NCBI RefSeq assembly: GCF_031769215.1
Contig: NW_026782006.1
Coordinates: forward strand, 844,070-908,069
DNA from: Ylistrum balloti
Lineage: Eukaryota
Reading direction: 5' to 3'
DNA length: 64,000 nt
Position numbers and translations under genes: made by a program. The notes below the pieces were generated by a model. It was not told the origin of the DNA and did not search any database. It saw nothing but the letters and a program-made list of their open reading frames with translations. The first letter of the stretch is position 1; each line of letters starts with the position of its first letter. Below are positions 1 to 25,264 of the stretch, one piece after another.

Positions 1-3000
1 CAATAACGGTAAGAAATACAAACATTTCCCGAAACTATTTCACTACAAGCCGTTATAACATTTCCCCGCGAAACTATTTCACTACAAGTCGTTTCCCCAC
101 GAAACTATTTCACTACAAGCCGTTATAACATTTCCCCGTGAAACTATATCACTACAAGCCGTTATAACATTTCCCCACGAAAATATTTCACTACAAGCCG
201 TTATAACGTTTCCCCGGGAAATTATTTCACTACAAGCCGTTATAACATTTCCCCACGAAACTATTTCACTGCAAGCCGTTATAACATTTCCCAATGAAAC
301 TATTTCACTACAAGCCGTTTTAATATTTCCCAATGAAACTATTTCACTACAAGCCGTTATAACATTTCCCCGCGAAACTATTTCACTACAAGCCGTTATA
401 ACATTTCCCCGCGAAACTATTTCACTACAAGCCGTTATAACATTTCCCCGCGAAACTATTTCACTACAAGCCGTTTCCCCACGAAACTATTTCACTACAA
501 GCCGTTATAACATTTCCCCGCGAAACTATTTCACTACAAGCCGTTATAACATTTCCCCGTAAAACTATTTCACTACCAGCCGTTATAACATTTCCCCGCG
601 AAACTATTTCACTACAAGCCGTTATAACATTTCCCAATGAAACTATTTCACTACAAGCCGTTTCCCCGTGAAATTATTTTACTACAAGCCGTTTTAATAT
701 TTCCCCGTGAAACTATTTCACTACAAGCCGTTATAACATTTCCCCACGAAACTATTTCACTACAAGCCGTTATAACATTTCCCCGCGAAACTATTTCACT
801 ACAAGCCGTTATAACATTTCCCCGTGAAACTATTTCACTACCAGCCGTTATAACATTTCCCCGCGAAACTATTTCACTACAAGCCGTTATAACATTTCCC
901 AATGAAACTATTTCACTACAAGCCGTTTCCCCGTGAAATTATTTTACTACAAGCCGTTTTAATATTTCCCCGCGAAACTATTTCACTACAAGCCGTTATA
1001 ACATTTCCCCACGAAACTATTTCACTACAAGCCGTTATAACATTTCCCAATGAAACTATTTCACTACAAGCCGTTATAACATTTCCCCGCGAAACTATTT
1101 CACTACAAGCCGTTATAACATTTCCCCGTGAAATTATTTCACTACAAGCCGTGAAACTATTTCACTACAAGCCGTTATAACATTTCCCAATGAAACTATT
1201 TCACTACAAGCCGTTATAACATTTCCCCGCGAAACTATTTCACTACAAGCCGTTATAACATTTCCCCGTGAAACTATTTCACTACAAGCCGTTATAACAT
1301 TTCCCCACGAAACTATTTCACTACAAGCCGTTATAACATTTCCCCGCGAAACTATTTCACTACAAGCCGTTATAACATTTCCCCACGAAACTATTTCACT
1401 ACAAGCCGTTATAACATTTCCCCGGGAAATTATTTCACTACAAGCCGTTATAACATTTCCCCGTGAAACTATTTCACTACAAGCCGTTATAACATTTCCC
1501 CGTGAAACTATTTCACTACAAGCCGTTATAACATTTCCCAATGAAACTATTTCACTACAAGCCGAAACTATTTCACTACAAGCCGTTATAACATTTCCCC
1601 GTGAAACTATTTCACTACAAGCCGTTATAACATTTCCCAATGAAACTATTTCACTACAAGCCGTTATAACATTTCCCCGCGAAACTATTTCACTACAAGC
1701 CGTTATAACATTTCCCCACGAAACTATTTCACTACAAGCCGTTATAACATTTCCCAATGAAACTATTTCACTACAAGCCGTTATAACATTTCCCCGCGAA
1801 ACTATTTCACTACAAGCCGTTATAACATTTCCCCGTGAAACTATTTCACTACAAGCCGTTTCCCCACGAAACTATTTCACTACCAGCCGTTATAACATTT
1901 CCCCGCGAAACTATTTCACTACAAGCCGTTATAACATTTCCCAATGAAACTATTTCACTACAAGCCGTTATAACATTTCCCCGTGAAACTATTTCACTAC
2001 AAGCCGTTATAACATGAAACTATTTCACTACAAGCCGTTATACGAAACTATTTCACTACAAGCCGTTATAACATTTCCCCACGAAACTATTTCACTGCAA
2101 GCCGTTATAACATTTCCCCGTGAAACTATTTCACTACAAGCCGTTATAACATTTCCCCGTGAAACTATTTCACTACAAGCCGTTTCCCCACGAAACTATT
2201 TCACTACAAGCCGTTATAATTTTCCCAGCGAAACTATTTCACTACAAGCCGTTATAACATTTCCCCGCGAAAATATTTCACTACAAGCCGTTATAACGTT
2301 TCCCCGTGAAACTATTTCACTACAAGCCGTTATAACATTTCCCAATGAAACTATTTCACTACAAGCCGTTATAACATTTCCCCACGAAACTATTTCACTA
2401 CCAGCCGTAATAACATTTCCCCGTGAAACTATTTCACTACCAGCCGTTATGAAACTATTTCACTAACGTTATAACATTTCCCAATGAAACTATTTCACTA
2501 CAAGCCGTTATAACCCCGACGAAACTATTTCACTACAAGCCGTTATAACATTTCCCGTTATAACATTTGAAACTATTTCACTACAAGCCGTTATAACAAC
2601 GAAACTATTTCACTACAAGCCGTTATAACATTTCACTACCCGTTATAACATTTCCCCACGAAACTATTTCACTACAAGCCGTTTCCCCACGAAACTATTT
2701 CACTACAAGCCGTTATAACGTTTCCCCGGGAAATTATTTCACTACAAGCCGTTATAACATTTCCCCGGGAAATTATTTCACTACAAGCCGTTATAACATT
2801 TCCCGACGAAACTATTTCACTGCAAGCCGTTATAACATTTCCCAATGAAACTATTTCACTACAAGCCGTTATAACATTTCCCCACGAAACTATTTCACTA
2901 CAAGCCGTTATAACATTTCCCAATGAAACTATTTCACTACAAGCCGTTATAACATTTCCCTATTTCACTACAAGCCGTTATAAATTTCCCAATGAAACGC

Positions 3001-4805
3001 GAAACTATTTCACTACAAGCCGTTATAACATTTCCCAAGCCATTATAACATTTCCCCGCGAAACTATTTCACTACAAGCCGTTATAACATTTCCCCGTGA
3101 AACTATTTCACTAAAAGCCGTTATAACATTTCCCGACGAAACTATTTCACTGCAAGCCGTTATAACATTTCCCCGCGAAACTATTTCACTACAAGCCGTA
3201 ATAACATTTCCCCGTGAAACTATTTCACTACAAGCCGTTATAACATTTCCCGACGAAACTATTTCACTACAAGCCGTTATAACATTTCCCAATGAAACTA
3301 TTTCACTACAAGCCGTAATAACATTTCCCCGTGAAACTATTTCACTACAAGCCGTTATAACATTTCCCAATGAAACTATTTCACTACAAGCCGTTATAAC
3401 ATTTCCCGACGAAACTATTTCACTGCAAGCCGTTATAACATTTCCCAATGAAACTATTTCACTACAAGCCGTTATAACATTTCCCCCCCCCCAGGAAACT
3501 ATTTCACTACAAGCCGTTATAACATTTCCCGACGAAACTATTTCACTACAAGCCGTTATAACATTTCCCCCCCCAGGAAACTATTTCACTACAAGCCGTT
3601 ATAACATTTCCCAACGAAACTATTTCACTACAAGCCGTTATAACATTTCCCCGTGAAACTATTTCACTACAAGCCGTTTCCCCACGAAACTATTTCACTA
3701 CAAGCCGTTATAACGTTTCCCAGCGAAACTATTTCACTGCAAGCCGTTATAACATTTCCCAATGAAACTATTTCACTACAAGCCGTTATAACATTTCACT
3801 ACCAGCCGTTATAACATTTCCCCGCGAAACTATTTCACTACAAGCCGTTATAACATTTCCCAATGAAACTATTTCACTACAAGCCGTTATAACATTTCCC
3901 CCCCAGGAAACTATTTCACTACAAGCCGTTATAACATTTCCCAATGAAACTATTTCACTACAAGCCGTTATAACATTTCCCCCCCCCCCAGGAAACTATT
4001 TCACTACAAGCCGTTATAACATTTCCCCCAAGGAAACTATTTCACTACAAGCCGTTATAACATTTCCCAATGAAACTATTTCACTACAAGCCGTTATAAC
4101 ATTTCCCAATGAAACTATTTCACTGCAAGCCGTTATAACATTTCCCCCCCAGGAAACTATTTCACTACAAGCCGTTATAACATTTCCCAATGAAACTATT
4201 TCACTACAAGCCGTTATAACATTTCCCGACGAAACTATTTCACTACAAGCCGTTATAACATTTCCCAATGAAACTATTTCACTGCAAGCCGTTATAACAT
4301 TTCTCCACGAAACTATTTCACTACAAGCCGTTATAACATTTCCCAATGAAACTATTTCACTAAAAGCCGTTATAACGTTTCCCCGCGAAACTATTTCACT
4401 ACAAGCCGTTATAACATTTCCCAATGAAACTATATCACTACAAGCCGTTATAACATTTCCCCGCGAAACTATTTCACTGCAAGCCGTTATAACATTTCCC
4501 AATGAAACTATTTCACTACAAGCTGTTATAACATTTCCCCGCGAAACTATTTCACTACAAGCCGTTATAACATTTCCCCACGAAACTATTTCACTACAAG
4601 CCGTTATAACATTTCCCCGCGAAACTATTTCACTACAAGCCGTTATAACATTTCCCCCACGAAATTATTTCACTACAAGCCGTTATAACATTTCTCCGGG
4701 AAATTATTTCGCTACAAGCCATTATAACATTTCCCCGTGAAACTATTTCACTACAAGCCGTTATAACATTTCCACGCGAAGCTATTTCATTACAAGCCGT
4801 TTTAA
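1..4805. repeat. Satellite A: ~39-bp unit (GAAACTATTTCACTACAAGCCGTTATAACATTTCCCCGC), ~120 tandem copies; includes a ~30-bp deletion variant (lacks TTATAACA...) and poly-C variants
   Basis: Direct reading: uninterrupted head-to-tail repetition. The 13-aa periodicity in the six-frame ORFs (GNVITACSEIVSR) equals 39 bp. Array ends ~4805, 69 bp before exon acceptor at 4873. Confidence 0.97.
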
Positions 4806-4873
4806 ATTGAAAACCAAATTTTGAATTTCTTTGACGCTAGATTGAATACTGATAAACGACGTGTATAATTCAG

Positions 4874-5014
4874 GTGGACCTCGGTAATGTGACCAGAGTG
4901 TTCGGCATAGCCACACAGAGCTACAGGTCGTCATCTTACTATACACTAACCTACCAAGTCACTTACAGTCGCGATGGCAACATCTTCACGAACGCAACTG
5001 GTGCCAGCGGAAAT
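4874..5014 (+). CDS. Gene A, penultimate coding exon: discoidin (F5/8 type C, FA58C) domain, central part (VDLGNVTRVFGIATQSYRSSSYYTLTYQVTYSRDGNIFTNATGASGN)
   Basis: Acceptor ..aattcAG at 4872-4873. Single open frame of 47 codons. Donor GTGAGT at 5015-5020. Translation carries discoidin hallmarks (VDLG ... gv.TQG ... Y.V.YS.DG..W). Confidence 0.8.
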
Positions 5015-5228
5015 GTGAGTTGTTCCTTTCTTCAGCTTTGAAGTAACTTCACTGCGTTAAAATTATTTTTCTTTTTTTTCTAATTTGTTATAATCATCAT
5101 TGAGGCTTACAATAATGTTATGATCGACATACTGAAATAACTGGTTTAGAAATCCATACTTTTTGTACTAGAAATCATAAATATATAATCCAGATAAACA
5201 ATAAATTAGATTCTATTTTAAATTGCAG

Positions 5229-5375
5229 ATTTTTTCCGCGAGTGCGAGTTACGACAGCATAATTAAACATGACTTGATGACGCCAGTTGTTGCCCGATTT
5301 GTCCGCTTCTATCCAAGATTGTGGCACACAGGAGGCAAGCCTGGACTCAGAGTGGAGGTGTACGGCTGCTACTGA
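5229..5375 (+). CDS. Gene A, terminal coding exon: discoidin domain C-terminus (IFSASASYDSIIKHDLMTPVVARFVRFYPRLWHTGGKPGLRVEVYGCY*)
   Basis: Acceptor ttaaattgcAG ending 5228, phase 0 continuous with previous exon. Motif ..ARFVRF.P..W....LRVEVYGC is the canonical FA58C C-terminus. TGA at 5373-5375. Confidence 0.8.
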   Translation: MFSASASYDSIIKHDLMTPVVARFVRFYPRLWHTGGKPGLRVEVYGCY

Positions 5376-8276: not shown

Positions 8277-8429
8277 TCATTCAGACCCGTACACATGGCA
8301 TCCGTAGACTTCCACTTTTAAACAAGGTCTTCTTGAATAAGAGGTGGGATGGAAACGAATAAATCTAGCAACTATGGGCGTTGGTAGATTTTGGAAGTAC
8401 GGGCTTGATGAATATCTCGCAAGAAATGT
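8277..8429 (-). CDS. Gene B, terminal coding exon: discoidin domain C-terminus (TFLARYSSSPYFQNLPTPIVARFIRFHPTSYSRRPCLKVEVYGCHVYGSE*)
   Basis: Minus-strand acceptor tttcAG (revcomp of ctgaaa 8430-8435). Phase 0. Stop TGA = 8277-8279. Paralogous to gene A last exon (PxVARFxRFxP...xVEVYGC). Confidence 0.8.
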   Translation of the reverse strand, partial: TFLARYSSSPYFQNLPTPIVARFIRFHPTSYSRRPCLKVEVYGCHVYGSE

Positions 8430-9458
8430 CTGAAAGGTAATTAAATATACATACATAGTCATTGAATAAACGGTTCTCATCATTCAGCTCTTTAATCGTT
8501 GTATGAATAGGCTATGCCAATTACACTATACTGTACCAATTAAACATTAACAAACAACTAGTCGTTTGGAAAACTTCAGTAGAAATTTCATTATGTGATA
8601 AATAACACTTGGTGTTCCAAAAGTCGCTCACTATCATATACTGCTATATATAATTATGCGATCACGACCATTAATAACAGGTAACATCGTGACAATGTTT
8701 TAACTGCTTGTTGACATTAATTTCAGCAAAGAATTTCTAGAAGATCAGAAGATTGCTGACATACACAGAGAACATGACAACTTTCCGATTTTTTAAAATT
8801 ACAAAATGAAGCTGAAATTATTGGGGTGATTTGAGAGGCAAACGGTAGCTACTCTCTAACCCATACCATGATATTTATATACATAGCTTTTTTGTGTAAA
8901 TATCATCTTTATACGATAGGATGTACATAAACATATAGGTAATGGTTAGGCTACTCTCTAACCTATTGTATTGAAATTTGTTCAGACACATATTATTGCT
9001 GCAGTACTCTCTGAACCATTAAATTCATCTCTTTTAACCACAACTTTCATTAGATAAATAAGAAGATAAAAAAGTAACGAGATTTGCACGCAGTTATAAA
9101 TCGCCTCTATGTTCCAGATTGAAAGCGAAATACAAGATAGTGCACATCGGCATCTATATCAAAAAACCATTTCACCCGATTCTAATTTTCTTAAATCTCC
9201 TAAGTTTAAATCCTTTAAGTATCACTATGAGTCATAGTCAATAGTACCTATAGATACAAATCATCAATACAAATTCAGGATTAGATACAGTAAAGACAGA
9301 AACTAACTGCATCATACAGCTGTTTTGTCCTTCTAGTCAGTGATGCTGAGAGTCCAGATTTTGGTGTAGTTTAATTCATTATTTGGCTACACTACTGTGT
9401 TTAATCTAAAACGTGTATCGAAACGTGCCATTGTTAAAGACATCTTCCCTATACATAC

Positions 9459-9592
9459 ATAATCATTTCCGTTCGTGCCGTTGATTTTCTGGAAGATGTT
9501 ACCGTCAGTGCTGCAGGCTAGGGTGTAGGCTGTCGTGTACTGGGAACGAGAATAGCCTTGGGTCATCACTCTGTAGATCCTAGTCAGGTTAC
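9459..9592 (-). CDS. Gene B exon: discoidin domain central part (G)NLTRIYRVMTQGYSRSQYTTAYTLACSTDGNIFQKINGTNGNDY
   Basis: Minus acceptor ..cgacAG (9593-9594). Phase-1 entry completes Gly of WLQIDL|G. Donor GTATGT (9458-9453). Exon break falls after 'GN', as in gene A. Confidence 0.78.
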
Positions 9593-11165
9593 CTGTCGTG
9601 GTAATCGTAAATAATTTCTCTTTTACACTTAAAGGTGTATTCTTTCGTGCCACATTTTAATTCATTCGACCAGTTTAGAATGTACACAACTACTTGAAAT
9701 CGACCTAAATGATCTCATATATGAAAATTATGGAATTTATGGAAATATGAGACTGGTGCACTTCAACATCTAGATTTTGACTTTTCTTTCGATCACTTTG
9801 GATTTTCCTCAGTCTTCAATCTTCAGTGATTAAATATGCGAGTTATAAACATCTCGGACAATGGGAGATACTGTTCGTCAATAGTAATCCTCTTTTACAA
9901 TATAATTACGAGGTGCAAGGGTATAGCATTTTACAGTCGAGGACATCTCCAATTCTGACCTGTAGTCAAAAGTATGAGTCTTGATTTTCACCCTCAAGAT
10001 ATAGTTTAGCTGCAAATCAATATATCTGTTTCATTTTTTTTAAACTGAGTCAATCATTGAATTTAACTTTGATAAAAGCAATTTGAACTTAAATATCAAG
10101 TTTATGTTATTAACAAAAAAACATATTTAATTGAGTGTTTCGCACTAATCATCAGACTTCGTTCGCATTATCCACAGGGAAACTAAGTCCAGAAAGGTTT
10201 TATGAAATGCTGCTAGAGTTCCTACACAAACACGTCTAGTATTGATATTAATAATCAAATACAGATATAACATATCAATTATTGCAAAGTCGAATACAGT
10301 AAATACAATGGAAATATAAACCACTTTGGATAAGAGGAAACGCGTGTCCAATTTAGGCGAAAACAAACATTCATGTTTTCAAATGGAATCAGCGGATCAG
10401 ATCATACATCTATTGAAAAATTCAATTTACTGTGATGAAATAACCTTAAAACAATGCAACGTTTGTAAAATATTGAACTGAGTTTTTCCTCCATGTAACT
10501 TTTTAATTAATCTTATTTGAATACTGGAACGGTTCAGAAAACGTCATTGAAATAATTCAATATTAAAAAATACGAAATTGATTGAATTTTCGGGTAAGTG
10601 CACCTCCCAATCTGTTTTTGGACAGTCATCTAAAGTAGGTGTAGACTTATGTAGGAATAAGATATATTATCAACCAGATTATTTGAAGAAGGGAAACGTA
10701 CACGAGACACATAAGTGATAGTATCTTTTAAAACAAATAATAAGTCAGGTAAAGTATGCCAAAGAATGAATCATAGGAATCATATAGCTGCGAAGTCCTT
10801 CTGGGATTCGTCGGTGATGCTAAGGGCCTACATTTTGAAGCCTATGCGGCGACGGAGAAAACTACAAACTGATCGAAATATTAAAATCTAGGTCGGTGCT
10901 CCCTAATGCAATAAATTTCATAATTTCCATTGAACTGTCTGAATATTTCAGAAGAATTTTAAGTACACCTGTTAACGTCGTCAGGTGGCGCGCTGTGGTA
11001 AAACATTCGCTTCTCACTTAGCCGTCCGGGGTACGACAGGGAGTCACCAGCACGATTGTGTGGGTTTCCACACAAGACCATATCCACAGATAGAATTAGG
11101 TCAAGCCACATAAGAAAAACGTTCTTTTTTGTGTGTATACAGTACCATGTTCTTTCTCTACTTAC

Positions 11166-11333
11166 CTAAATCGATCTGGAGCCATGAGTTGGAGTCTTCT
11201 CCACACCATCCGTAGCCGCTGGCGGCGTATCTACCATTGGATGGCAAAAGCGTACTGTAGGTTTGGTAGGCAGTCATCTGAGCGTCGGGTATGGTGTACC
11301 GGTGCTGTACACCAACAGCCCGACTAGTACATG
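11166..11333 (-). CDS. Gene B exon: discoidin domain N-terminal part (A)CTSRAVGVQHRYTIPDAQMTAYQTYSTLLPSNGRYAASGYGWCGEDSNSWLQIDL
   Basis: Minus acceptor ttctAG (11334-11335). Phase 1 in, phase 1 out. Donor GTAAGT (11165-11160). Starts with Cys and ends WLQIDL, the discoidin N-terminal consensus. Confidence 0.8.
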
Positions 11334-11973
11334 CTAGAAAAAGAGGGAGAAAACGATATTTCTATCAAACATAGGAACTCTTCTTCGTTTGAAAATCTGA
11401 GTTTGAAACAGAAAAAGGATTTCTATGTCCAATTCATTGTTTTAATGATGTGACGTATCACTATGTCACTGAACAAATTTCTTGCTAAATGATATACAGT
11501 ATAATGTATCATACAACAGGATGATCAGACACCAAACCAGACATAAAAGGTAGAACAATATGAACGTAAAGAGATGTACCATACCATTCACAAAAAAAAA
11601 AAAAAAAACCCTCGGATGAAAGGATGCAGCCCAAATTGACATCTCCGCAAAAGTGGTAATTTCAGAATATTCGGTAAAATAGTCTACATTACGTTTATTA
11701 CAGACTATGCCTTTATAAGTCTGCCTCCCTAAAGTTTTGATATATACATATAATTTAAGATATTGAAAAGTTTGGTCTTGGAATGAAATCACAAAAGACA
11801 AAGTGAATACATGTAGGCGATGTCTCGTGGGAACTGATCTTTCTCGCTAAGTGTTTTATATGTAGAGTTAATTGACAAATCATCCAGCAACCCCATCCAT
11901 CCAAAGTTTCGGAAATCCGCTCCCCCTTTTTCTACAAAAATCTTGACTCCAGTACTCACGCTGTTTTACATAC

Positions 11974-12087
11974 CGTATTCACACTTTTGGCCTCCGAAGG
12001 TTATTGTACAGTTACAGGTAAACCCTGCCTTCGTATCCGTACACTCTCCGTTGTTTTGACAAGGATTCGACGTACAATGATCAAATT
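11974..12087 (-). CDS. Gene B exon: single EGF-like module (E)FDHCTSNPCQNNGECTDTKAGFTCNCTITFGGQKCEY
   Basis: Minus acceptor tttcAG (12088-12089). Donor GTATGT (11973-11968). Symmetric phase-1 exon of 114 nt. Six Cys with CxC and G(F/Y)xG spacing typical of EGF. Confidence 0.85.
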
Positions 12088-12293
12088 CTGAAATATAGAT
12101 TCAATTTACTTATCGTTGAAAAAACAGCACGTAGTAACCACATCTTTAATTAACCATATTATTATACATGTATAAATTACCAAACACATAAATTGAAGAT
12201 TTCTATTTTATCTGATAACAAAATAATTTTACAGAAATAATCATTTTCCACCACAATATATTGTCATAACAGTAAAGACAAGATACATTATAC

Positions 12294-12483
12294 CTAATGT
12301 TTCCATCCTGAAAACAGCATCGGCGTATTTATTATGCGAGTCTAATGCACGGATTGTGAATGAGTAGCTATTGGTTTCATCAGGAACCTCGCCCACCACG
12401 TGACCGGTTGTGCCGTTCAGCTTGATACCTGGTGGAAGATCTCCGGCGACAAGCGCGAAGGTGATGGTACCGCCTTCTGGATC
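12294..12483 (-). CDS. Gene B exon: dystroglycan-type cadherin-like / putative Ig (CADG, He_PIG) domain core (DPEGGTITFALVAGDLPPGIKLNGTTGHVVGEVPDETNSYSFTIRALDSHNKYADAVFRMETL)
   Basis: Only one open frame. Phase 0 in, phase 1 out (190 nt), matching the phase-1 EGF exon. Motif F.DPeG..lTF.l..G.LP.Gl.Ln..TG.l.G.P...d.gsY.f.i.A.D. Donor GTATAA is weak. Confidence 0.65.
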
Positions 12484-12767
12484 CTCAAAGCGAATTCATA
12501 TTTGTGGTATTTGTAAGTTGCTTCTAACGGTTACATTGAAAATAATACAATTCTACGACCACGGTATGGGATCGCTAAACATATATCTGTGTTTACATTG
12601 AATGCTTCACATATTCATGATAGTCGGATGTTATTTTAGTAGAAGACATAAATTTTTTAGAAATCTAGCAATAAAATCTAGTCGAGGAATTCCGACCAGC
12701 TGTAGTATCTAGTGTACTAACGTCACATTCACTTTTGTGTACTTTCAGTGTATTGTATAAGTAGTAC

Positions 12768-12869
12768 CTCTGCTTCAAGTTTCAAGTCAACCTTCTCTTC
12801 TCCTTTAAAGGTGCCGAAGAATCCAACATGAGCATGCGCAGACCAAACAGGTGGTAAACTAGTAGCAAT
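12768..12869 (-). CDS. Gene B candidate exon: N-terminal part of the CADG-like domain (IATSLPPVWSAHAHVGFFGTFKGEEKVDLKLEAE)
   Basis: Polypyrimidine tract + AG (tttttttaaatgtttaAG). Phase 0/0 of 102 nt. Donor AG|GTACTA. Joins in frame to the DPEGG exon. Acceptor choice is ambiguous (alternative AG 11 nt downstream). Confidence 0.45.
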
Positions 12870-13489
12870 CTTAAACATTTAAAAAAATCCATTTAAACAA
12901 CCACTTAAACACGGACAAAAAAAGTTTTTCTATAGACGGTTTCATCCAAATTTAGCAGTGTGTTTACTATCAAAAAGGATGTTCCTCCCATTAAGTGAAT
13001 TTTACAGTTTAACCATAACAAAATCTAGAATAATTGTCCTGTACAAGTAAACATACAAAGCAGATCGTCATTGTCGAATTACAGAACAGCATACATAACA
13101 ATGGGCCAGTCAGCGTGAACGGTCACCTGACTATAAAGATCTATAAATAACAGTAACAGTGGTAGTGGGAACAATGATTAAAGGATTAAAACAAATATCA
13201 TATTAACTATTTAGTTAATAAAAAATACCAACACTGTTCCAGTTTAGCTCCCCTTCCCCCTTCACTGCTTAATGATGCCATTGGAAATGAAGAAGCAGTT
13301 TTGTGTTTTGATTTCGGAACGCCAATAAAAATATGTAAATTTTATCAGAACTATGGCAGGATCAATCACTAAAATTTTTAGATCAATCTCACTTGTGGAA
13401 CTTGAGGATTTTAAAAAAAAATATGTGTTGTTGAAGAAATGAAAGATTTTGCAAACATGTTACAAAATGCCTCCCATTGCTTCCATGTT

Positions 13490-13720
13490 GAACACCCTCT
13501 CATTATTCCTACCAATTTTCAGCTGAATAGTATCAGTGGAACAGGAGAAGAAGTAAACAATTTTCAGACGGTGACTGACCCTTAAAATTAGACCAGTGGT
13601 TACATCTAAGGATCAATCCTGGCAAGTTCCAACTGAATACTGCCGGTAGAACTGGACAGGAAGTTTAATATGTGAAGACTGGGAATCACCACCACTTAAC
13701 TCACTTCATTTCTTGTTGGA
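13490..13720. mobile_element. SINE/MITE-like dispersed element: two ~90-bp related half-units (..CCAACTGAATA...GTGGAACAGGAGAAGAAGT..CAGACGGTGACTGACC)
   Basis: Same motif architecture recurs at 28850-29230 (TGGTACTGGAGAAGAAGTTTAAG...GGATTTCAGACTGACC; CCAACTCAATAGCAGCAGTGGGACTGGAGAA). Confidence 0.4.
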
Positions 13721-13870
13721 TATAGAGAATATTCCGCAAAGTTACTAGACTCAGGTCAGTTGTGTGGTATGGTTGAGACCATCGATCTCGCGTACCACAA
13801 GTATGATACAGAGAAGATATATGAGCTCTGAGTACAATATATCACCTGGGAATGGATAAAGTAATATTAC

Positions 13871-13954
13871 CTGGATAATGTGACGTAGGTCTACGTCCTC
13901 CAAGTACACAGAACCTCCATTTGGTCCGGGCAGTACGTGCAAGTCCTGGGTCAT
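13871..13954 (-). CDS. Gene B candidate 5' coding exon (MTQDLHVLPGPNGGSVYLEDVDLRHIIQ) immediately abutting the 33-bp satellite
   Basis: Strong donor CAG|GTAATA at 13870. Phase 0 compatible with 12869 exon. Start may be the ATG at 13954 or an acceptor inside the satellite (ttggcAG|gctgg). Confidence 0.35.
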
Positions 13955-13956
13955 AC

Positions 13957-16565
13957 GACCAGCCTGCCAACAAAGGATAGATTTAAAATGACCAGCCTGC
14001 CAACAAAGGATAGACTTACACTGACAAGCCTGCCAACAAAGGACAGACTTACAACGACAAGCCTGCCAACAATGGATAGACTTACAATGACCAGCCTGCC
14101 AACAAAGGATAGACTTACAACAAGCAGCCTGTCAACAAAGGATAGACTTACAACAACCAGCCTGCCAACAAAGGATAGATTTACAACAACCAGCCTGCCA
14201 ACAAAGGATAGGCTTACAATGACCAGCCTGCCAACAAAGGATAGACTTACAACAACCACCTGCCAACAAAGGATAGACTTACAACAACCAGCCTGCCAAC
14301 AAAGGATAGACTTACAACAACCAGCCTGCCAACAAAGGATAGATGTACATCAACCAGCCTGTCAACAAAGGATAGATTTACAACAACCAGCCTGCCAACA
14401 AAGGATAGACTTACAACAACCAGCCTGCCAACAAAGGATAGATGTACATCAACCAGCCTGTCAACAAAGGATAGACTTACAACAACCAGCCTGCCAACAA
14501 AGGATAGACTTACAACAACCAGCCTGCCAACAAAGGATAGATGTACATCAACCAGCCTGCCAACAAAGGATAGATGTACATCAACCAGCCTGCCAACAAA
14601 GGATAGATGTACATCAACCAGCCTGTCAACAAAGGATAGACTTACAATGACCAGCCTGCCAACAAAGGATAGACTTACAACAAGCAGCCTGTCAACAAAG
14701 GATAGACTTACAACAACAAGCCTGCCAACAAAGGATAGACTTACAACAACCAGCCTGCCAACAAAGGATAGATGTACATCAACCAGCCTGCCAACAAAGG
14801 ATAGATGTACATCAACCAGCCTGTCAACAAAGGATAGACTTACAATGACCAGCCTGCCAACAAAGGATAGACTTACAACAAGCAGCCTGTCAACAAAGGA
14901 TAGACTTACAACAACCAGCCTGCCAACAAAGGATAGATTTACAACAACCAGCCTGCCAACAAAGGATAGATTTACAACAACCAGCCTGCCAACAAAGGAT
15001 AGATTTACATCAACCAGCCTGCCAACAAAGGATAGACTTACAACAACCAGCCTGCCAACAAAGGATAGATGTACATCAACCAGCCTGTCAACAAAGGATA
15101 GATGTACATCAACCAGCCTGTCAACAAAGGATAGACTTACAATGACCAGCCTGCCAACAAAGGATAGACTTACAATGACCAGCCTGTCAACAAAGAATAG
15201 ACTTACAACAACCAGCCTGCCAACAAAGGATAGATTTACAACAACCAGCCTGCCAACAAAGGATAGGCTTACAATGACCAGCCTGCCAACAAAGGATAGA
15301 CTTACAACAACCACCTGCCAACAAAGGATAGACTTACAACAACCAGCCTGTCAACAAAGGATAGACTTACAACAACCAGCCTGCCAACAAAGGATAGATG
15401 TACATCAACCAGCCTGTCAACAAAGGATAGACTTACAATGACCAGCCTGCCAACAAAGGATAGACTTACAACAAGCAGCCTGTCAACAAAGGATAGACTT
15501 ACAACAACCAGCCTGCCAACAAAGGATAGATTTACAACAACCAGCCTGCCAACAAAGGATAGGCTTACAATGACCAGCCTGCCAACAAAGGATAGACTTA
15601 CAACAACCACCTGCCAACAAAGGATAGACTTACAACAACCAGCCTGCCAACAAAGGATAGACTTACAACAACCACCTGCCAACAAAGGATAGACTTACAA
15701 CAACCAGCCTGTCAACAAAGGATAGACTTACAACAACCAGCCTGCCAACAAAGGATAGATGTACATCAACCAGCCTGTCAACAAAGGATAGACTTACAAT
15801 GACCAGCCTGCCAACAAAGGATAGACTTACAACAAGCAGCCTGTCAACAAAGGATAGACTTACAACAACCAGCCTGCCAACAAAGGATAGATTTACAACA
15901 ACCAGCCTGCCAACAAAGGATAGGCTTACAATGACCAGCCTGCCAACAAAGGATAGACTTACAACAACCACCTGCCAACAAAGGATAGACTTACAACAAC
16001 CAGCCTGCCAACAAAGGATAGACTTACAACAACCAGCCTGCCAACAAAGGATAGATTTACAACAACCAGCCTGCCAACAAAGGATAGATGTACATCAACC
16101 AGCCTGTCAACAAAGGATAGATTTACAACAACCAGCCTGCCAACAAAGGATAGACTTACAATGACCAGCCTGCCAACAAAGAATAGATTTACCACAACCA
16201 GCCTGCCAACAAAGGATAGATTACAACAACCAGCCTACAACAACCAGCCTGCCAACAAAGGATAGACTTACAACAACCACCTGCCAACAAAGGATAGATT
16301 TACAACAACCAGCCTGTCAACAAAGGATAGACTTACAACAACCAGCCTGCCAGCAAAGGATAGACTTACAATGACCAGCCTGCCAACACAGGATAGATGT
16401 ACATCAACCAGCCTGCCTACAAAGGATAGACTTACAATGACCAGCCTGCCAACAAAGGATAGACTTACAATGACCAGCCTGCCAACAAAGGATAGACTTA
16501 CAACAACCAGCCTGCCAACAATGGATAGATTTACATCAACCAGCCTGTTAACAAAGGAAAGACTC
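13957..16565. repeat. Satellite B: 33-bp unit (CCAGCCTGCCAACAAAGGATAGACTTACAACAA), ~79 copies
   Basis: Direct reading. 11-aa periodic ORFs (TSLPTKDRLTT / VVVSLSFVGRL) on both strands are repeat artefacts. Confidence 0.97.
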
Positions 16566-17118
16566 TAGTGAGGATGTAGTTAACGTCTATATCTATACAA
16601 AGAATGTACACACACGTGAATCTTTTGTTTTTATTTAATTAGATATAAGCTTTCTTTTACCCTTTTTTATCAGAAGTATACTTGCTAGTATTCAATCCAA
16701 TTAACAATTTGGCTTCAGAGTTTTCAATGTGCTTCTATAAATAGGCAAACATGTTTCCTTGTAGAATAAACATCGTGATTTATTGTACTATCCGATGATA
16801 TCGATATAACGTAAAATATCGTAGGTCGTCAGGTTTGAGTTCAGTAACGTATTAATAAGGCACAATACACCTTGTTTATTGAATATCAAAATATTAGATG
16901 CTGACAGATACAACTAAGAAGCGTCCTGTTATCGTAGATCGTAAAGTTATCCAATAACACCTCTGGGAGTCTGCAATGATTATAAGGAAGGTATTACGTT
17001 CAAGCATGTTGTTTCTGGTTATCTCTCTCGGGAAATTTCAGACATTCAAGTTACCTGTAAGGAAACGTTACCGTCATCCTGGGCCGCTACGACGACACTC
17101 GGGTATCTGATGTCGAAA

Positions 17119-17700
17119 ACTCTGAAATGGGAAACCTTATTGTAGAACATGACAACTTGATGTCTAACATTCTGAAATGGGAAACCTTATTATAGAACAT
17201 GACAACTTGATGTCTAACATTCTGAAATGGGAAACCTTATTATAGAACATGACAACTTGATGTCTAACATTCTGAAATGGGAAACCTTATTATAGAACAT
17301 GACAACTTGATGTCTAACATTCTGAAATGGGAAACCTTATTATAGAACATGACAACTTGGTGTCTAACATTCTGAAATGGGAAACCTTATTATAGAACAT
17401 GACAACTTGATGTCTAACATTCTGAAATGGGAAACCTTATTATAGAACATGACAACTTGGTGTCTAACATTCTGAAATGGAAACCTTATTATAGAACATG
17501 ACAACTTGATGTCTAACATTCTGAAATGGAAAACCTCTGAAATAGGAAACTTTGTTGTAGAACATGACCACGTGATATCTAACATCCTGAAATGGGAAAC
17601 CTTGTTGTAGAACATGACCACGTGATATCTAACATCCTGAAATGGGAAACCTTGTTGTAGAACATGGCTACGTGATGTCAAACTCTCCGATATAGGAAAT
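17119..17700. repeat. Satellite C: 50-bp unit (TCTGAAATGGGAAACCTTATTATAGAACATGACAACTTGATGTCTAACAT), ~11 copies, decaying to ~17800
   Basis: Unit start positions 17121, 17171, 17221 ... read directly. Confidence 0.9.
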
Positions 17701-18474
17701 TTTTTTTATAAAGCATGACTACGTGGTGTCAAATACTGCGAAATGAGAAACATTGTAAATCACAAGTACGTGATGCCTAACTGTCCGAAATGGGAAACCT
17801 TAGTTCAGGGTAAAACCTTATCAAACAAACAAAAATGGGAAAGACTACTCCGATTACACAACCACCATTGTCATGGTCAGTTTATGTACATCTCACATTC
17901 AATATGGGGCTCCGTTTTAGTAATTCTTCACAATGTGAAAAATTTGTTTTCGAATTACCCCTAAATATAAGTAAAGAAAATCAGACGATTCCATTGTTTT
18001 CCTTTCGATCCGCTGTCTCTGGCCAATTTCTCTCTCTGACACTTTCACTCTCACTTAGTACATCCAGGCATAACAGATATTTTGTTTATAATTGTTCTAT
18101 TTACATAGTTTGAATTTTCGTTCTTGAAAATTTAGTTTTAGAGTATCCAGAGTAAACACTGAAAAGCATTCTGTCGAAACGTGCTCTTTGGAGTACTTTT
18201 ATCAGCTCTCGGGATGGCTTTGAGAAATACGTTGTGAAATATATCGAAAGGAGACAAAAGAAAATGAATCCGCAAATGACGTACAAGTACATTGTAGATT
18301 GTGGAGACATCTCGGTTCTTCTCTTCATTCATTATTACTACGGCTTATATTTAAAGGAAAAACGAGTAAAGAAATATAGAAATAGTAAATAAATGTGTTC
18401 CTTTCCTAACACAGGCTGTACTGTAAAGCACACGTAATAGAACAGTTTCTGATGGAAAAACTTACGTCTCTTTT

Positions 18475-18625
18475 CTATTCATAGGAGGAATACAAAGATT
18501 GTACAAAAGACACACAAGTGAATAACACCTTTTAATACAAAGTTTGTACAAAAGACACACAAGTGAATAACACCTTTAAATACAAGGATTGTACGAAAGA
18601 CACACAAGTAATTACCATTTTTCAA
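18475..18625. repeat. Short tandem repeat, ~48-bp unit x3 (..TGTACAAAAGACACACAAGTGAATAACACCTTT..)
   Basis: Direct reading. Confidence 0.8.
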
Positions 18626-18689
18626 TGGTCAAATATTAGATAGAGTAAAGAATAACAATGAATTCCACTGCATCATACTGCTGTTTCCT

Positions 18690-18850
18690 CCTTCCAGGAC
18701 TCGTCAGTGAAGCTACATCATACTGCTGTTTCCTCCTTCCAGGACTCGTCAGTGATGCTACGTCATACTGCTGTTTCCTCCTTCCAGGACTCGTCAGTGA
18801 TTCTACATCATACTGCTGTTTCCTCCTTCCAGGACTCGTCAGTGATTTTC
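18690..18850. repeat. Short tandem repeat, 42-bp unit x4 (CTACATCATACTGCTGTTTCCTCCTTCCAGGACTCGTCAGTGA)
   Basis: Direct reading. Confidence 0.85.
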
Positions 18851-18959
18851 CTGAATTTTGAAGCCTAGGAGGCGACTGAGGAAAATCTAAAGTGATTGAA
18901 TTTTTTTCAAATCTAGACGGGTGCAGCAACCCCATAATTAAATAAATTGGCAGTAGGGG

Positions 18960-21900
18960 AAAGTGAAGGCCTATTACACATGTTGTCATTAAGCCTATTA
19001 CACGACATGTTGTCAGTATGGCTACTACATGGACATGTTGTCAGTATGCCTATTACATGACACGTTGTCATTAAGCCTATTACATGACATGTTGCCATTA
19101 TGCCTATTGCATGACATGTTGCCATTATGCCTATTGCATGACATGTTGTCAGTATGCCTATTATATGACATTTGTCAATAAGCCTATTACATGATATGTT
19201 GTCAGTATGCCTATTACATGGACACGTTGTCATTAAGCCTATTACATGACACGTTGTCATTATGTCTATTACATGACACGTTGTCAGTATGCCTATTACA
19301 TGGACACGTTGTCATTAAGCCTATTACATGACATGATGTCTTTAAGCCTATTACATGACATGTTGTCAGTATGCCTATTACATGACATGTTGTCATTAAG
19401 CCTATTACATGAAATGTTGTCATTATTCATATTTCATGACACGTTATCATTATGCCTGTTTTATGACACGTTGTCAGTATGCCTATTACAGGACACGTTG
19501 TCATTAAGCCTATTACAGGACATGATGTCTTTAAGCCTATTACATGGACACGTTGTCATTAAGCCTATTACATGACACGTTGTCATTAAGCCTATTACAT
19601 GACATGTTGTCAGTATGGCTATTGCATGACACGTTGTCATTAAGCCAATTATATGATATGTTGTCATAAAGCCTATTACATGACATGTTGTCATTATGTT
19701 TAGTACATGAAACGTTGTTGTGTATTACCTGATATGTAGTCATTATGCCTATTACATGGACACGTTGTCAATAAGCCTATTACATGACACGTTGTCATTA
19801 AGCCTATTACATGACACGTTGTCATTATGTTTATTACATGACATGTTGTCAGTATGGCTATTACATGACACGTTGTCATTAAGGCTATTTCATGACATGT
19901 TGTCAGTATGGCTATTACATGACATGATGTCTTTAAGCCTATTACATGACATGTTGTCAGTATGCCTATTACATGACATGTTGTCATTAAGCCTATTACA
20001 TTACACGTTGTTATTAAGCATATTACATGACGCGTTGTCATTAAGCCTATTACATGACATGATGTCAGTATGCCTATTATATGACATTTGTCAATAAGCC
20101 TATTACATGATATGTTGTCAGTATGCCTATTACATGGACACGTTGTCATTAAGCCTATTACATGACACGTTGTCATTAAGCCTATTACATGACACGTCAT
20201 TAATCCTATTACATGACACGTTGTCATTTAGCCTAGTTCATGACATGTTGTCAGTATGCCTATTACATAACATGTTGTCATTAAGCCTATTACATGATAT
20301 GTTGTTAGTATGGCTATTACATGACATGATGTCTTTAAGCCTATTACATGACATGTTGTCATTAAGCCTATTACATGGACACGATTGTCATTAAGCCTAT
20401 TACATGACATGCCTTTAAGCCTATTACATGGACACGTTGTTATTATGTCTATTACATGACATGTTGTCAGTATGGCTATTACATGACATGATGTCTTTAA
20501 GGCTATCACATGACATGTTGTCATTAAGCCTATTACATCACACGTTGTCATTAAGCCTATTACATGAAACGTTGTTGTCTATTACATGACACGTTGTCAT
20601 TTAGTCTATTACATGACATGATGTCTTTAAGCCTATTAAATGACATGTTGTCATTATGTCTATTACATGACATGTTGTCAGTATGGCTATTACATGACAT
20701 GATGCATTTAAGCCTATTACATGATATGTTGTCATTATGCCAATTGCATGACACGTTGTCAGTATGCCTATTACATGACACGTTGTCATTAAGCCTATTA
20801 CATGACACGTTGTAAGTATGCCTATTACATGACAAGTTGTCATTAAGCCTATTACATGACATGTTGTCAGTATGCCTATTACATGACACGTTGTCATTAA
20901 GCCTATTACATGACACGTTGTTGTCCATTACATGACACGTTGTCATTAAGCCTATTATATGACATGTTGTCATTAAGTCTATTACATGACATGATGTCTT
21001 TAAGCCTATTAAATGACACGTTGTTATTAAGCCTATTACATGACGCGTTGTCATTAAGCCTATTACATGACATGTTGTCATTAAGCCTATTACATTACAC
21101 GTTGTTATTAAGCATATTACATGACGCGTTGTCATTAAGTCTATTACATGACATGATGTCTTTAAGCCTATTAAATGACACGTTGTTATTAAGCCTATTA
21201 CATGACGCGTTGTCATTAAGCCTATTACATGACATGTTGTCATTAAGCCTATTACATGGACACGTTGTTATTAAGCCTATTACATGACGCGTTGTCATTA
21301 AGTCTATTACATGACATGATGTCTTTAAGCCTATTACATGACATGATGCCTTTAAGCCTATTAATGACATGTTGTCATTAAGCCCATTAGATGACACGTT
21401 GTCATTAAGCCTATTACATGATATGTTGTCAGTATGGCTATTACATGACATGATGTCTTTAAGCCTATTACATGATATGTTGTCAGTATGGCTATTACAT
21501 GACATGATGTCTTTAAGCCTATTAAATGACACGTTGTTATTAAACCTATTACATGACGCGTTGTCATTATGTCTATTACATGATATGTTGTCAGTATGGC
21601 TATTACATGACATGATGTCTTTAAGCCTATTACATGACACGTTGTCATTAAGCCTATTACATGATATATTGTCATTATGTCTATTACATGACATGATGTC
21701 TATAAGCCTATTACATGACACGTTGTCATTAAGCCTATTACACGACACGTTGTCATTATGTCTATTACATGACATGTTGTCAGTATGGCTATTACATGAC
21801 ATGATGTCTTTAAGGCTATTACATGACATGTTGTCATTAAGCCTATTACATGACATGTTGTCAGTATGTCTATTACATGACATGTTGTCAGTATGCCTAT

Positions 21901-22110
21901 TACATGACATGTTGTCATTAAGCCTATTACATGGACACGTTGTTATTAAGCCTATTACATGACGCGTTGTCATTAAGTCTATTACATGACATGTTGTCAG
22001 TATGGCTATTACATGACTTGATGTCTTTAAGCCTATAACATGACATGATGCCTTTAAGCCTATTAATGACATGTTGTCATTAAGCCCATTACATGAAATG
22101 TTTGTCATTT
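18960..22110. repeat. Satellite F: 30-bp unit (ATTACATGACACGTTGTCATTAAGCCTATT), ~105 copies; unit contains imperfect palindrome TGACA-CGT-TGTCA
   Basis: 10-aa periodic ORFs (HVIGLMTTCH etc.). Direct reading. Confidence 0.97.
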
Positions 22111-22894
22111 TGCCTACAGGAATATTATCTGAATTGGGCATAATTACTTTAAACACTTGTCATCCGCTAATGAAAGGTTATTATAGAAACACAAGGTACT
22201 TACAAACAAACTACATAAGTACCTATAAAGAAGTTATTATTATCAACATCTCCTGTACTAATGTATTTTAAATCTATATGTTCGTTGATACACGTGTACA
22301 ATATTAGAATATGATAATAAATATTTCCCTTATTGATAAAACAAAGATCTATCAGGCCAGTCATCCTATCAATTTACAATATATAAACTTACCCATCATC
22401 TGCTGCAGTCGCTGTAACTAAAAGTAGTAAAACAATCATTCTTCTCGGCGGTCAAAACAAGCACGTCTGTAAAACTTCCGGCAATTCTCCAGACCTGTCG
22501 TTATCCCCGCGATTTTATCCTCGATTTCTCTGTTGCATAGCAGTATAAGGATTCTAGTTAATGTCTGAGATCAGACGATTTAGACTGGTTCTCGGTTACA
22601 TTGCTTGACATTAAATATACTGTGTTAGCTCAGACACAGGATTCTTAACTATGGTGTGTGACTTACGTAAACCAAACAATAGATATTTATATCAATGTTG
22701 ACAAATGTCTCCCCTCTGACTAACTAACGGTTAAATTCCCTACCACATCAACTCTGTCTATGACAAACACCGATACTATCGTTACATTAGTAACAAGAAT
22801 CCCATTTGACTCAGCTTCAGCAACATGTAAAAGTTTTTATACTGAAATGAAATATAAGAATACAAATGTCTCTAATGAATCTGAGGGTTTAACT

Positions 22895-24262
22895 ACAGAC
22901 TGATAAATAGACCTTGTAAGAAGAGGAGGGCACGGGTCACGGTATCCATGGTCTATGTACTACTGAGACCGATAAATAGACCTTGTTAGAAGAGGGGGAC
23001 ACGGGTCACGGTATCCATGGTCTATGTACTACTGAGACCGATAAATAGACCTTGTTAGAAGAGGGGGACACGGGTCACGGTATCCATGGTCTATGTACTA
23101 CTGAGACCGATAAATAGACCTTGTTAGAAGAGGAGGACACGGGTCACGGTATCCATGGTCTATGTACTACTGAGACCGATAAATAGACCTTGTTAGAAGA
23201 GGGGGACACGGGTCACGGTATCCGTGGTCTGTGTACTACTGAGACCGATAAATAGACCTTGTTAGAAGAGGAGGACACGGGTCACGGTATCCGTGGTCTA
23301 TGTACTACTGAGACCGATAAATACATCTTGTTAGAAGAGGGGGACACGGGTCACGGTATCCGTGGTCTATGTACTACTGAGACCGATAAATAGACCTTGT
23401 TAGAAGAGGGGGACACGGGTCACCGTATCTGTGGTCTATGTACTACTGAGACCGATAAATACATCTTGTTAGAAGAGGGGGACACGGGTCACCGTATCCG
23501 TGGTCTGTGTACTTATGAGATCGATAAATACATCTTGTTAGAAGAGGAGGGCACGGGTCACCGTATCCGTGGTCTGTGTACTTTTGAGACCGGTAAATAC
23601 ATCATGTTAGAAGAGGAGGGCACGGGTCACCGTATCCGTGGTCTGTGTACTTTTGAGACCGGTAAATACATCATGTTAGAAGAGGAGGGCACGGGTCACC
23701 GTATCCGTGGTCTGTGTACTTTTGAGACCGGTAAATACATCATGTTAGAAGAGGAGGGCACGGGTCACTGTATCCGTGGTCTGTGTACTACTGAGACCGA
23801 TAAATAGACCTTGTTAGAAGAGGAGGACACGGGTCACGGTATCCATGGTCTATGTACTACTGAGACCGATAAATAGACCTTGTAAGAAGAGGAGGGCACG
23901 GGTCACGGTATCCGTGGTCTATGTACTACTGAAACCGATCAATAGACCTTGTTAGAAGAGGAGGGCACGGGTCACGGTATCCGTGGTCTATGTACTACTG
24001 AAACCGATAATTGACCTTGTTAGAAGAGGAGGGCACGGGTCACGGTATCCATGGTCTATGTACTACTGAGACCGATAAATAGACCTTGTAAGAAGAGGAG
24101 GGCACGGGTCACGGTATCCGTGGTCTATGTACTACTGAAACCGATCAATAGACCTTGTTAGAAGAGGAGGGCACGGGTCACGGTATCCGTGGTCTATGTA
24201 CTACTGAAACCGATAATTGACCTTGTTAGAAGAGGAGGGCACGGGTCACGGTATCCATGATC
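22895..24262. repeat. Satellite G: 69-bp unit (..CCTTGTTAGAAGAGGGGGACACGGGTCACGGTATCCATGGTCTATGTACTACTGAGACCGATAAATAGA), ~20 copies
   Basis: Unit starts at 22912 and 22981 (period 69). 23-aa periodic ORF. Confidence 0.95.
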
Positions 24263-25040: not shown

Positions 25041-25264
25041 AATGATCAACAAGACCTTAAAAATGGTTTCAGCTGTAACATGTAAACAGCATAGGTGGCT
25101 GGAGAGATGTACCTGTTGCTTTTGTTGTAAGAAACACTTGGGGTTAGCGGGTGATGTAGAAAAGTATGTCTTGTCCTTGATTTCCGATTCTGGTGGGTTT
25201 ATTCGATAGACATGGTCAATAAATGTCTTACTACTCAATGAGACATCATCAAGATGATTGGGGG

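What the first reader, a model, noticed from the sequence alone, without database searches (positions are those of the whole stretch)
8277..13954. Gene B is a modular CADG - EGF - discoidin protein built from phase-1 exons
Reading the minus strand gives three modules. The first is a ~97-aa dystroglycan-type cadherin-like / He_PIG module (exons 12768-12869 and 12294-12483). The second is one EGF module on a symmetric phase-1 exon (11974-12087). The third is a discoidin domain on three exons. Every junction I traced keeps phase. The g|aa junction gives Glu before the EGF, the g|ca junction gives Ala before the discoidin Cys, and the g|gt junction gives Gly of WLQIDLG. Phase-1 symmetric exons are the classic exon-shuffling signature for EGF modules. 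I do not recognise this domain combination as matching any named protein, but that rests on memory, not a database search.
Basis: partly seen in the sequence, partly recalled or inferred. Interest (0 to 1): 0.55.

Follow-up and report, generated by a model that had tools for sequence, protein, structure and literature searches.

The report
Annotated scallop He_PIG–EGF–discoidin secreted protein

Summary
The spliced translation is 100% identical to RefSeq XP_060065434.1 of the scallop Ylistrum balloti (355 aa). All three domain calls pass Pfam's curated cut-offs: F5_F8_type_C 66.3 bits, He_PIG 38.8, EGF 25.7. Predicted structures agree: the discoidin part matches factor VIII C2 and neuropilin b1, and the He_PIG part matches cadherin repeats, dystroglycan and alpha-sarcoglycan.

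Two corrections:
- The gene is longer than reported. ATG 13954 is internal Met42. Two more exons (22439-22393, signal peptide; 17121-17055) lie upstream, behind introns filled with minisatellites.
- Only three of the eight introns are phase 1, namely those flanking the EGF exon and the one after WLQIDLG. The He_PIG module is phase 0 to 1, so "built from phase-1 exons" is overstated.

Intron positions and phases are identical in Pecten and Mya. An oyster-like homologue is encoded by an uninterrupted ORF on a short contig that is probably a transcript.

The family was found only in bivalves and usually sits in small paralogue clusters. It has one EGF, one discoidin domain and no RGD, so it is not an EDIL3/MFGE8 orthologue. 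Function is untested; a secreted bridging or adhesion protein is the best inference. Interest is low.

The parts
22393..22439 (-). Coding exon 1 (47 nt, ends in phase 2): start codon and signal peptide MIVLLLLVTATAADDG. An in-frame TGA lies five codons upstream of the ATG.
   Evidence: tblastn with P0001; exact GT-AG solution; upstream stop
17055..17121 (-). Coding exon 2 (67 nt, phase 2 to 0): VFDIRYPSVVVAAQDDGNVSLQ, first part of the N-terminal region seen only in bivalves.
   Evidence: same exon in Pecten and Mya
13871..13963 (-). Coding exon 3 (93 nt, phase 0-0): AGRMTQDL...HIIQ. The acceptor and first 6 nt of the exon (13958-13963) fall inside the last copy of the 33-nt minisatellite.
12768..12869 (-). 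Coding exon 4 (102 nt, phase 0-0): first third of the He_PIG / cadherin-like Ig module (IATSLPPVW...KLEAE).
12294..12483 (-). Coding exon 5 (190 nt, phase 0 to 1): core of the He_PIG module (DPEGGTITFALVAGDLPPGIKLNGTTGHVVGEVP...).
   Evidence: Pfam He_PIG 1.3e-9, 38.8 bits against cut-off 24
11974..12087 (-). Coding exon 6 (114 nt, symmetric phase 1-1): one EGF domain with six invariant Cys. It carries an Asp/Asn-hydroxylation-type motif (CTDTKAGFTCNC) and a C-x-S-x-P-C motif.
   Evidence: Pfam EGF 25.7 bits against cut-off 21.5; invariant Cys; motifs
11166..11333 (-). Coding exon 7 (168 nt, phase 1-1): first part of the discoidin (F5/8 type C) domain, Cys206 to WLQIDLG.
9459..9592 (-). Coding exon 8 (134 nt, phase 1 to 0): middle part of the discoidin domain.
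8277..8429 (-). Coding exon 9 (153 nt, phase 0, stop TGA at 8279-8277): last part of the discoidin domain, including closing Cys349.
   Evidence: the phase-0 intron before this exon is shared with coral discoidin cassettes
18978..22116 (.). 27-nt minisatellite (~117 copies) that fills most of intron 1. The intron is 5271 nt here, against 1714 nt in Pecten and 315 nt in Mya.
13958..16564 (.). 33-nt minisatellite (~79 copies) that fills intron 2 and runs into exon 3. Most copies carry an acceptor-like TTGGCAG|G.

Best explanation
The region is the 3' seven exons of a nine-exon protein-coding gene on the minus strand (CDS 22439-8277) of the scallop Ylistrum balloti. The gene is already annotated as XP_060065434.1. 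It encodes a 355-aa secreted protein with this layout: a signal peptide (aa 1-13), a conserved region of about 55 aa found only in bivalve orthologues (aa ~14-66), one He_PIG / cadherin-like Ig domain (aa ~67-166), one EGF domain (aa 167-205) and one C-terminal discoidin (F5/8 type C) domain (aa 206-350). These steps are shown: the gene model, the domain identities, the folds, the conserved exon structure, and the fact that every identifiable family member found is a bivalve protein. This step is inferred: the protein acts outside the cell as a bridging or adhesion molecule. On that reading the discoidin domain attaches to a surface ligand (membrane lipid, glycan or collagen, as discoidin domains do in lactadherin, factor V/VIII, neuropilins and DDRs). 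The He_PIG domain, together with the N-terminal region, would then hold a second partner. The architecture fits an older N-terminal/He_PIG part that gained an EGF-plus-discoidin cassette across a phase-1 intron. It does not fit a protein built wholly from phase-1 modules.
Against: No expression data from this species were available, so the junctions rest on the RefSeq model, on conservation and on a probable transcript from a relative. The function is wholly inferred from domain content. Alignment to factor VIII C2 places the membrane-inserting residues (M2199/F2200, L2251/L2252; residue identities from established knowledge) in or beside loops that are shorter in the scallop protein, so lipid binding of the factor VIII or lactadherin type is uncertain. 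The N-terminal 60 residues are modelled with pLDDT below 50 and match no family. The homologue searches have limited sensitivity, so restriction to bivalves is not proven.
Confidence: 0.85

Rival explanations
1. It is a true orthologue of vertebrate EDIL3 (Del-1) or MFGE8 (lactadherin), as the database name says. In that case it would work as an opsonin that links phosphatidylserine on membranes to integrins through an RGD motif in an EGF domain.
For: Automated names are 'EDIL3', 'lactadherin', 'MFGE8' or 'coagulation factor VIII-like'. The EGF-then-discoidin order is the same. The best solved-structure relatives of the discoidin domain include factor VIII, neuropilins and lactadherin C2.
Against: The protein has one EGF instead of two or three and one discoidin domain instead of two. 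No RGD occurs in any of 14 family members. It also has a He_PIG domain and an N-terminal region, neither of which I know of in EDIL3 or MFGE8. Scores fall sharply from bivalve family members (at least 364 bits) to the nearest outside protein, a coral 'EDIL3-like' that matches over EGF and discoidin only (262 bits). The loops corresponding to the lipid-inserting spikes are shorter.
Confidence: 0.08
2. The whole protein was assembled by exon shuffling of symmetric phase-1 modules.
For: The EGF exon is 1-1. The discoidin domain enters in phase 1. Coral discoidin cassettes are 1-1 units.
Against: The He_PIG module starts in phase 0 and ends in phase 1, and exons 1-4 have phases 2,0,0,0. The phase-1 intron after WLQIDLG lies inside the domain and is absent from the complete coral cassettes, so it is not a module border. 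At most the EGF-plus-discoidin part behaves as a phase-1 cassette.
Confidence: 0.3
3. The reading frame is a pseudogene, or a chance concatenation of ORFs with no expressed product.
For: There are no transcript data from this species. The introns are swollen with minisatellites, and one array supplies about 76 decoy acceptors upstream of exon 3.
Against: The frame is intact across nine exons and all splice sites are canonical. Orthologues are 41-74% identical and have identical intron positions in bivalve families as far apart as Pectinidae and Myidae. All domain Cys residues are conserved. A homologue is encoded by an uninterrupted ORF on a short contig that is probably a transcript.
Confidence: 0.02

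Closest known systems
EDIL3 (Del-1) and MFGE8 (lactadherin): secreted EGF-discoidin bridging proteins of vertebrates
   Same: Both are secreted. A Notch-type EGF domain on a phase 1-1 exon is followed directly by an F5/8 type C domain that enters in phase 1. The discoidin fold is very close (TM ~0.8 to lactadherin C2).
   Different: The scallop protein has one EGF rather than 2-3, one discoidin domain rather than two, and no RGD. It also has an N-terminal region and a He_PIG domain, and shorter spike loops. It is not an orthologue, and the database name is borrowed.
Dystroglycan and alpha/epsilon-sarcoglycan cadherin-like (CADG) domains, and the wider He_PIG family (PF05345)
Cnidarian multi-discoidin 'EDIL3-like' proteins (Stylophora P0010, Oculina P0183)
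   Same: They are the nearest proteins found outside bivalves. They share the EGF/discoidin part, the phase-1 entry into the discoidin cassette and the phase-0 intron before the last discoidin exon.
   Different: They have several discoidin repeats and no He_PIG or bivalve N-terminal region. Their complete cassettes have no intron after WLQIDLG.
Retinoschisin and other small secreted proteins with a single discoidin domain
   Same: It is a small secreted protein whose C-terminal half is one discoidin domain (retinoschisin scores 43 bits). Extra cysteines outside the canonical pair are present.
   Different: The N-terminal modules differ. Nothing here shows oligomerisation.

Membership tests
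F5/8 type C (discoidin) domain, PF00754 | Profile match above the curated threshold | tested here: met
   66.3 bits against cut-off 28.2, E 3.8e-18, covering profile positions 15-126 of 127
F5/8 type C (discoidin) domain, PF00754 | Cysteines at the start and end of the domain that close the barrel | tested here: met
   Cys206 and Cys349 are invariant in both 9-sequence family alignments
F5/8 type C (discoidin) domain, PF00754 | Distorted beta-barrel fold of factor V/VIII C domains | tested here: met
   Foldseek TM 0.79-0.83 and rmsd 2.3-2.8 A to factor VIII C2, neuropilin b1, lactadherin C2 and DDR2 DS
EGF-like domain, PF00008 | Six-cysteine pattern and profile match above threshold | tested here: met
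   25.7 bits against cut-off 21.5. Cys171, 176, 182, 191, 193 and 202 are invariant. The best solved relatives are Notch EGF repeats.
EGF-like domain, PF00008 | Calcium-binding EGF consensus (PROSITE EGF_CA) | tested here: not met
   The full pattern does not match because His stands where D/E/Q/N is required before the first Cys. Only the hydroxylation-type motif C-x-D-x4-F-x-C-x-C matches.
He_PIG, PF05345 (putative Ig / cadherin-like domain) | Profile match above the curated threshold | tested here: met
   38.8 bits against cut-off 24, E 1.3e-9. The phmmer search found 8569 hits at E<=0.001, and the four top-ranking large hits that were scanned are multi-He_PIG proteins.
He_PIG, PF05345 (putative Ig / cadherin-like domain) | Cadherin-like beta-sandwich fold | tested here: met
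Dystroglycan-type cadherin-like domain (SMART CADG, SM00736) | Match to the SMART CADG profile | not testable with these tools
EDIL3 / MFGE8 orthologue | Two or three N-terminal EGF repeats | tested here: not met
   Only one EGF domain, on one exon
EDIL3 / MFGE8 orthologue | RGD integrin-binding motif in an EGF repeat | tested here: not met
   No RGD in this protein or in 13 other family members
EDIL3 / MFGE8 orthologue | Tandem C1-C2 discoidin domains | tested here: not met
   A single F5_F8_type_C match, with the stop codon directly after it
Classical cadherin repeat, PF00028 | Profile match and the calcium-binding linker motifs | tested here: not met
   No PF00028 hit at E<=1. A profile of the N-terminal half gave only sub-threshold matches to CELSR1 (E 0.02) and protocadherin-15 (E 0.33).

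The most novel reading that the evidence does not exclude
The most novel reading not excluded is this. The gene belongs to a bivalve-restricted, tandemly duplicated family of secreted proteins whose ~55-aa N-terminal region is an undescribed module. The family is not related by descent to EDIL3/MFGE8 and has a lineage-specific extracellular role, for example in matrix or shell-associated adhesion, or in recognition of particles or cells. Databases currently hide the family under borrowed vertebrate names.
Probability: 0.5. Interest if true: 0.25.

Novelty: already known. Interest (0 to 1): 0.12.

Why it matters
It matters little beyond annotation hygiene. The exact protein, its exon structure and its three Pfam domains are already in public databases. 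The useful outcomes are modest. The 'EDIL3 / lactadherin / factor VIII-like' names given to this family in bivalve genomes are misleading and should not be used to infer integrin or phosphatidylserine bridging. The family has a conserved N-terminal region of unknown fold that could be worth a structural or expression study. The locus also shows correct splice-site choice next to a minisatellite that supplies dozens of decoy acceptors.

Tried and rejected
- A profile search with only the N-terminal 89 residues (alignment A3) returned just short unnamed fragments, so it added nothing on distribution.
- A profile of the N-terminal half against PDB sequences gave only sub-threshold cadherin matches.
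- AlphaFold did not fold aa 1-60 in either run (pLDDT below 50), so the N-terminal region remains undefined.
- Literature searches for the Mizuhopecten accessions and for He_PIG + discoidin + EGF found nothing. A cadmium-binding-protein paper that mentions Ylistrum balloti concerns meprin and is irrelevant. An EGF/ZP shell-matrix paper mentions EDIL3 only for chicken eggshell.
- The coral protein P0010 is not on record by exact sequence, so Oculina P0183 was used instead for the exon comparison.
- I checked whether the Peptidase_C78 N-terminus of the oyster models (P0006, P0007) is part of the family. It is absent from the window, and an oyster-like, probably transcript-derived contig carries a normal signal peptide instead. 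I therefore treat it as a model artefact or an alternative 5' end.
- I rejected the pseudogene and chance-ORF readings and EDIL3 orthology; the reasons are under the rival explanations.
Full report
**Source and gene model**

Exact coordinates were fixed by pattern search. Joining 13954-13871, 12869-12768, 12483-12294, 12087-11974, 11333-11166, 9592-9459 and 8429-8277 gives one open frame of 314 codons that ends in TGA. All internal borders are AG...GT.

- G|AA gives Glu before the EGF domain.
- G|CA gives Ala before the first discoidin Cys.
- G|GT gives the Gly of WLQIDLG.

A search of public proteins returned a 355-aa protein that is 100% identical over the whole query. [quoted passage not shown] The window therefore comes from that genome, and the gene is already annotated.

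**The 5' end is incomplete in the finding**

The RefSeq protein has 41 more residues at its N-terminus. tblastn places them at 22439-22392 and about 17120-17055. Only one GT-AG solution reproduces the protein exactly:

| Exon | Coordinates | Phase in, out | Content |
|---|---|---|---|
| 1 | 22439-22393 | 0, 2 | start codon, signal peptide |
| 2 | 17121-17055 | 2, 0 | N-terminal region |
| 3 | 13963-13871 | 0, 0 | N-terminal region |
| 4 | 12869-12768 | 0, 0 | He_PIG, first third |
| 5 | 12483-12294 | 0, 1 | He_PIG core |
| 6 | 12087-11974 | 1, 1 | EGF |
| 7 | 11333-11166 | 1, 1 | discoidin, first part |
| 8 | 9592-9459 | 1, 0 | discoidin, middle |
| 9 | 8429-8277 | 0, stop | discoidin, last part |

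An in-frame stop lies five codons upstream of ATG 22439. Exon 1 encodes a hydrophobic signal-peptide-like segment, MIVLLLLVTATAA|DDG; the cleavage site is inferred from the sequence and was not predicted with a dedicated tool.

The eight intron phases are 2,0,0,0,1,1,1,0. Only exons 6 (EGF) and 7 (first discoidin exon) are symmetric phase-1 exons. The He_PIG module on exons 4+5 runs from phase 0 to phase 1.

**Domain calls**

Pfam results on the 314-aa model:

| Family | Bits | Cut-off | E-value |
|---|---|---|---|
| F5_F8_type_C | 66.3 | 28.2 | 3.8e-18 |
| He_PIG | 38.8 | 24 | 1.3e-9 |
| EGF | 25.7 | 21.5 | 1.4e-5 |

The He_PIG call was tested three further ways.
- A phmmer search with residues 16-167 against 1.84 billion representative proteins found 8569 proteins at E<=0.001. 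The best stretches cover query positions ~52-150, which are protein residues ~67-165, that is exons 4+5.
- Four large top-ranking hits were scanned against Pfam; each carries 7-16 He_PIG repeats.

The SMART CADG profile itself could not be run.

The full-length model has pLDDT 80-92 over residues 90-350. Its discoidin part superposes on factor VIII C2, neuropilin b1, lactadherin C2 and the DDR2 DS domain at TM about 0.8. The six EGF cysteines and the two cysteines that close the discoidin domain are invariant in the family.

Residues 14-66 match no Pfam family. They are not folded with confidence. Among the 150 best hits listed, only two bivalve proteins aligned over this region: a Mizuhopecten paralogue and a Solemya velum protein.

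**Independent support for the junctions**

No RNA-seq from this species was available. I mapped the orthologous proteins onto their own genomes with an exact spliced-match script. Pecten maximus and Mya arenaria both have nine coding exons, with introns at the same residues and the same phases 2,0,0,0,1,1,1,0.

An oyster-like family member (P0170, 354 aa) has its own signal peptide. It is encoded by an uninterrupted 1065-nt ORF on a 2193-nt contig assembled from sequencing run SRR27190594. An intron-free coding sequence on so short a contig is what a transcript would give; the library type of that run was not checked.

**Family and naming**

A profile of nine family members recovered 26 proteins at E<=1e-20.
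- Every named protein covering 69-100% of the query, at 364 bits or more, is from a bivalve. The genera are Ylistrum, Pecten, Argopecten, Mizuhopecten, Crassostrea, Saccostrea, Mytilus, Mactra, Mya and Solemya.
- The next hit, at 262 bits, is a coral protein whose precomputed Pfam domains are discoidin only.
- Sources name the family variously as EDIL3, lactadherin, MFGE8, 'coagulation factor VIII-like' or uncharacterised.
- The genes sit in small clusters of paralogues in Pecten and Mya.

The family has one EGF and one discoidin domain, and none of 14 members has an RGD. It also carries a He_PIG domain and an N-terminal region; to my knowledge EDIL3 and MFGE8 have neither. The three defining features of EDIL3/MFGE8 that I tested are all unmet, so I do not file it as an orthologue. 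Full-text searches found no paper on these proteins.

**Exon shuffling**

The EGF exon is a classic 1-1 exon. In the coral Oculina, each complete discoidin repeat is a 1-1 cassette of two exons. Its internal phase-0 intron lies at the position of the scallop intron between exons 8 and 9. The scallop's phase-1 intron after WLQIDLG is absent from the complete coral repeats. The evidence therefore fits an EGF-plus-discoidin cassette joined across a phase-1 intron to an older N-terminal/He_PIG part. It does not fit a protein made entirely of phase-1 modules.

**Likely function (inference)**

The protein has a signal peptide, no membrane anchor and three extracellular-type domains. The best reading is a secreted bridging or adhesion protein. 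The discoidin domain would bind a surface ligand, and the He_PIG and N-terminal part would bind a second partner.

Alignment to factor VIII C2 shows that the loops corresponding to the hydrophobic membrane-inserting spikes are shorter in the scallop protein. The identity of those spike residues comes from established knowledge of factor VIII. Lipid binding of the factor VIII type is therefore uncertain, and the ligand class cannot be named from sequence.

**Verdict**

The object is an ordinary gene that is already annotated, made of three well-known domains. The corrections concern the missing 5' exons, the overstated phase-1 claim and the misleading database name. Interest is low.

Noticed in passing
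window 1-64000: About 61% of the window (39,227 nt in 21 arrays) is minisatellite DNA. There are many unrelated units of 26-156 nt, each in up to ~140 copies. This density around and inside genes is striking.
   Followed up: partly
window 13958-16564 (minus strand, intron 2 / exon 3 border): The 33-nt minisatellite ends inside exon 3, so the real acceptor and the first 6 nt of the exon are the last repeat copy. The array holds 76 acceptor-like TTGGCAGG sites and 46 GTAAGT donor-like sites. The same intron is 643 nt in Pecten and 398 nt in Mya and has no such repeat at its 3' end. How the correct acceptor is chosen is unexplained.
   Followed up: partly
window 4856-5375, + strand: These are the last two exons of a convergent neighbouring gene that ends in a discoidin domain (...VRFYPRLWHTGGKPGLRVEVYGCY*). 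It is 40-49% identical to the family. It lies directly after a 39-nt minisatellite (30-4805), and its upstream exons are outside the window. Its intron before 'IQVDLG' seems to sit at a different place from the one in gene B.
   Followed up: partly
P0006 (Saccostrea) and P0007 (Crassostrea virginica); L003: The oyster gene models replace the signal peptide and first exons with a Peptidase_C78 (UFSP-like) N-terminus. An oyster-like contig that is probably a transcript instead encodes the normal signal-peptide form. The fusions are probably annotation artefacts or alternative 5' exons. No Peptidase_C78 sequence lies next to the gene in this window.
   Followed up: partly
protein residues Cys248, Cys341 and Cys286 (window about 11206-11204, 8324-8322 and 9517-9515, minus strand): Cys248 (GWCG) and Cys341 (PCLKV) are present together or absent together across 14 family members, which suggests an extra disulfide in the discoidin domain. 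Cys286 of the Ylistrum protein lacks the partner Cys that other members have at the ARF position, so the mature protein has an odd number of cysteines.
   Followed up: no
L001 (Pecten maximus) 10001-26495; L002 (Mya arenaria): Family members lie in small clusters with convergent and tandem paralogues. In L001 the 354-aa orthologue lies tail to tail with a 351-aa He_PIG-EGF-discoidin gene, followed by a 363-aa discoidin-family gene. Mya has neighbouring paralogues of 353/411 aa. The tail-to-tail arrangement mirrors gene B and its neighbour in the window.
   Followed up: partly
window 49969-50589: A G-rich 48/96/144-nt tandem repeat (GGAGGTGGGGGAGGTGGTG...) whose period is a multiple of three. 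It could encode a Gly-rich repeat protein or simply be another satellite.
   Followed up: no
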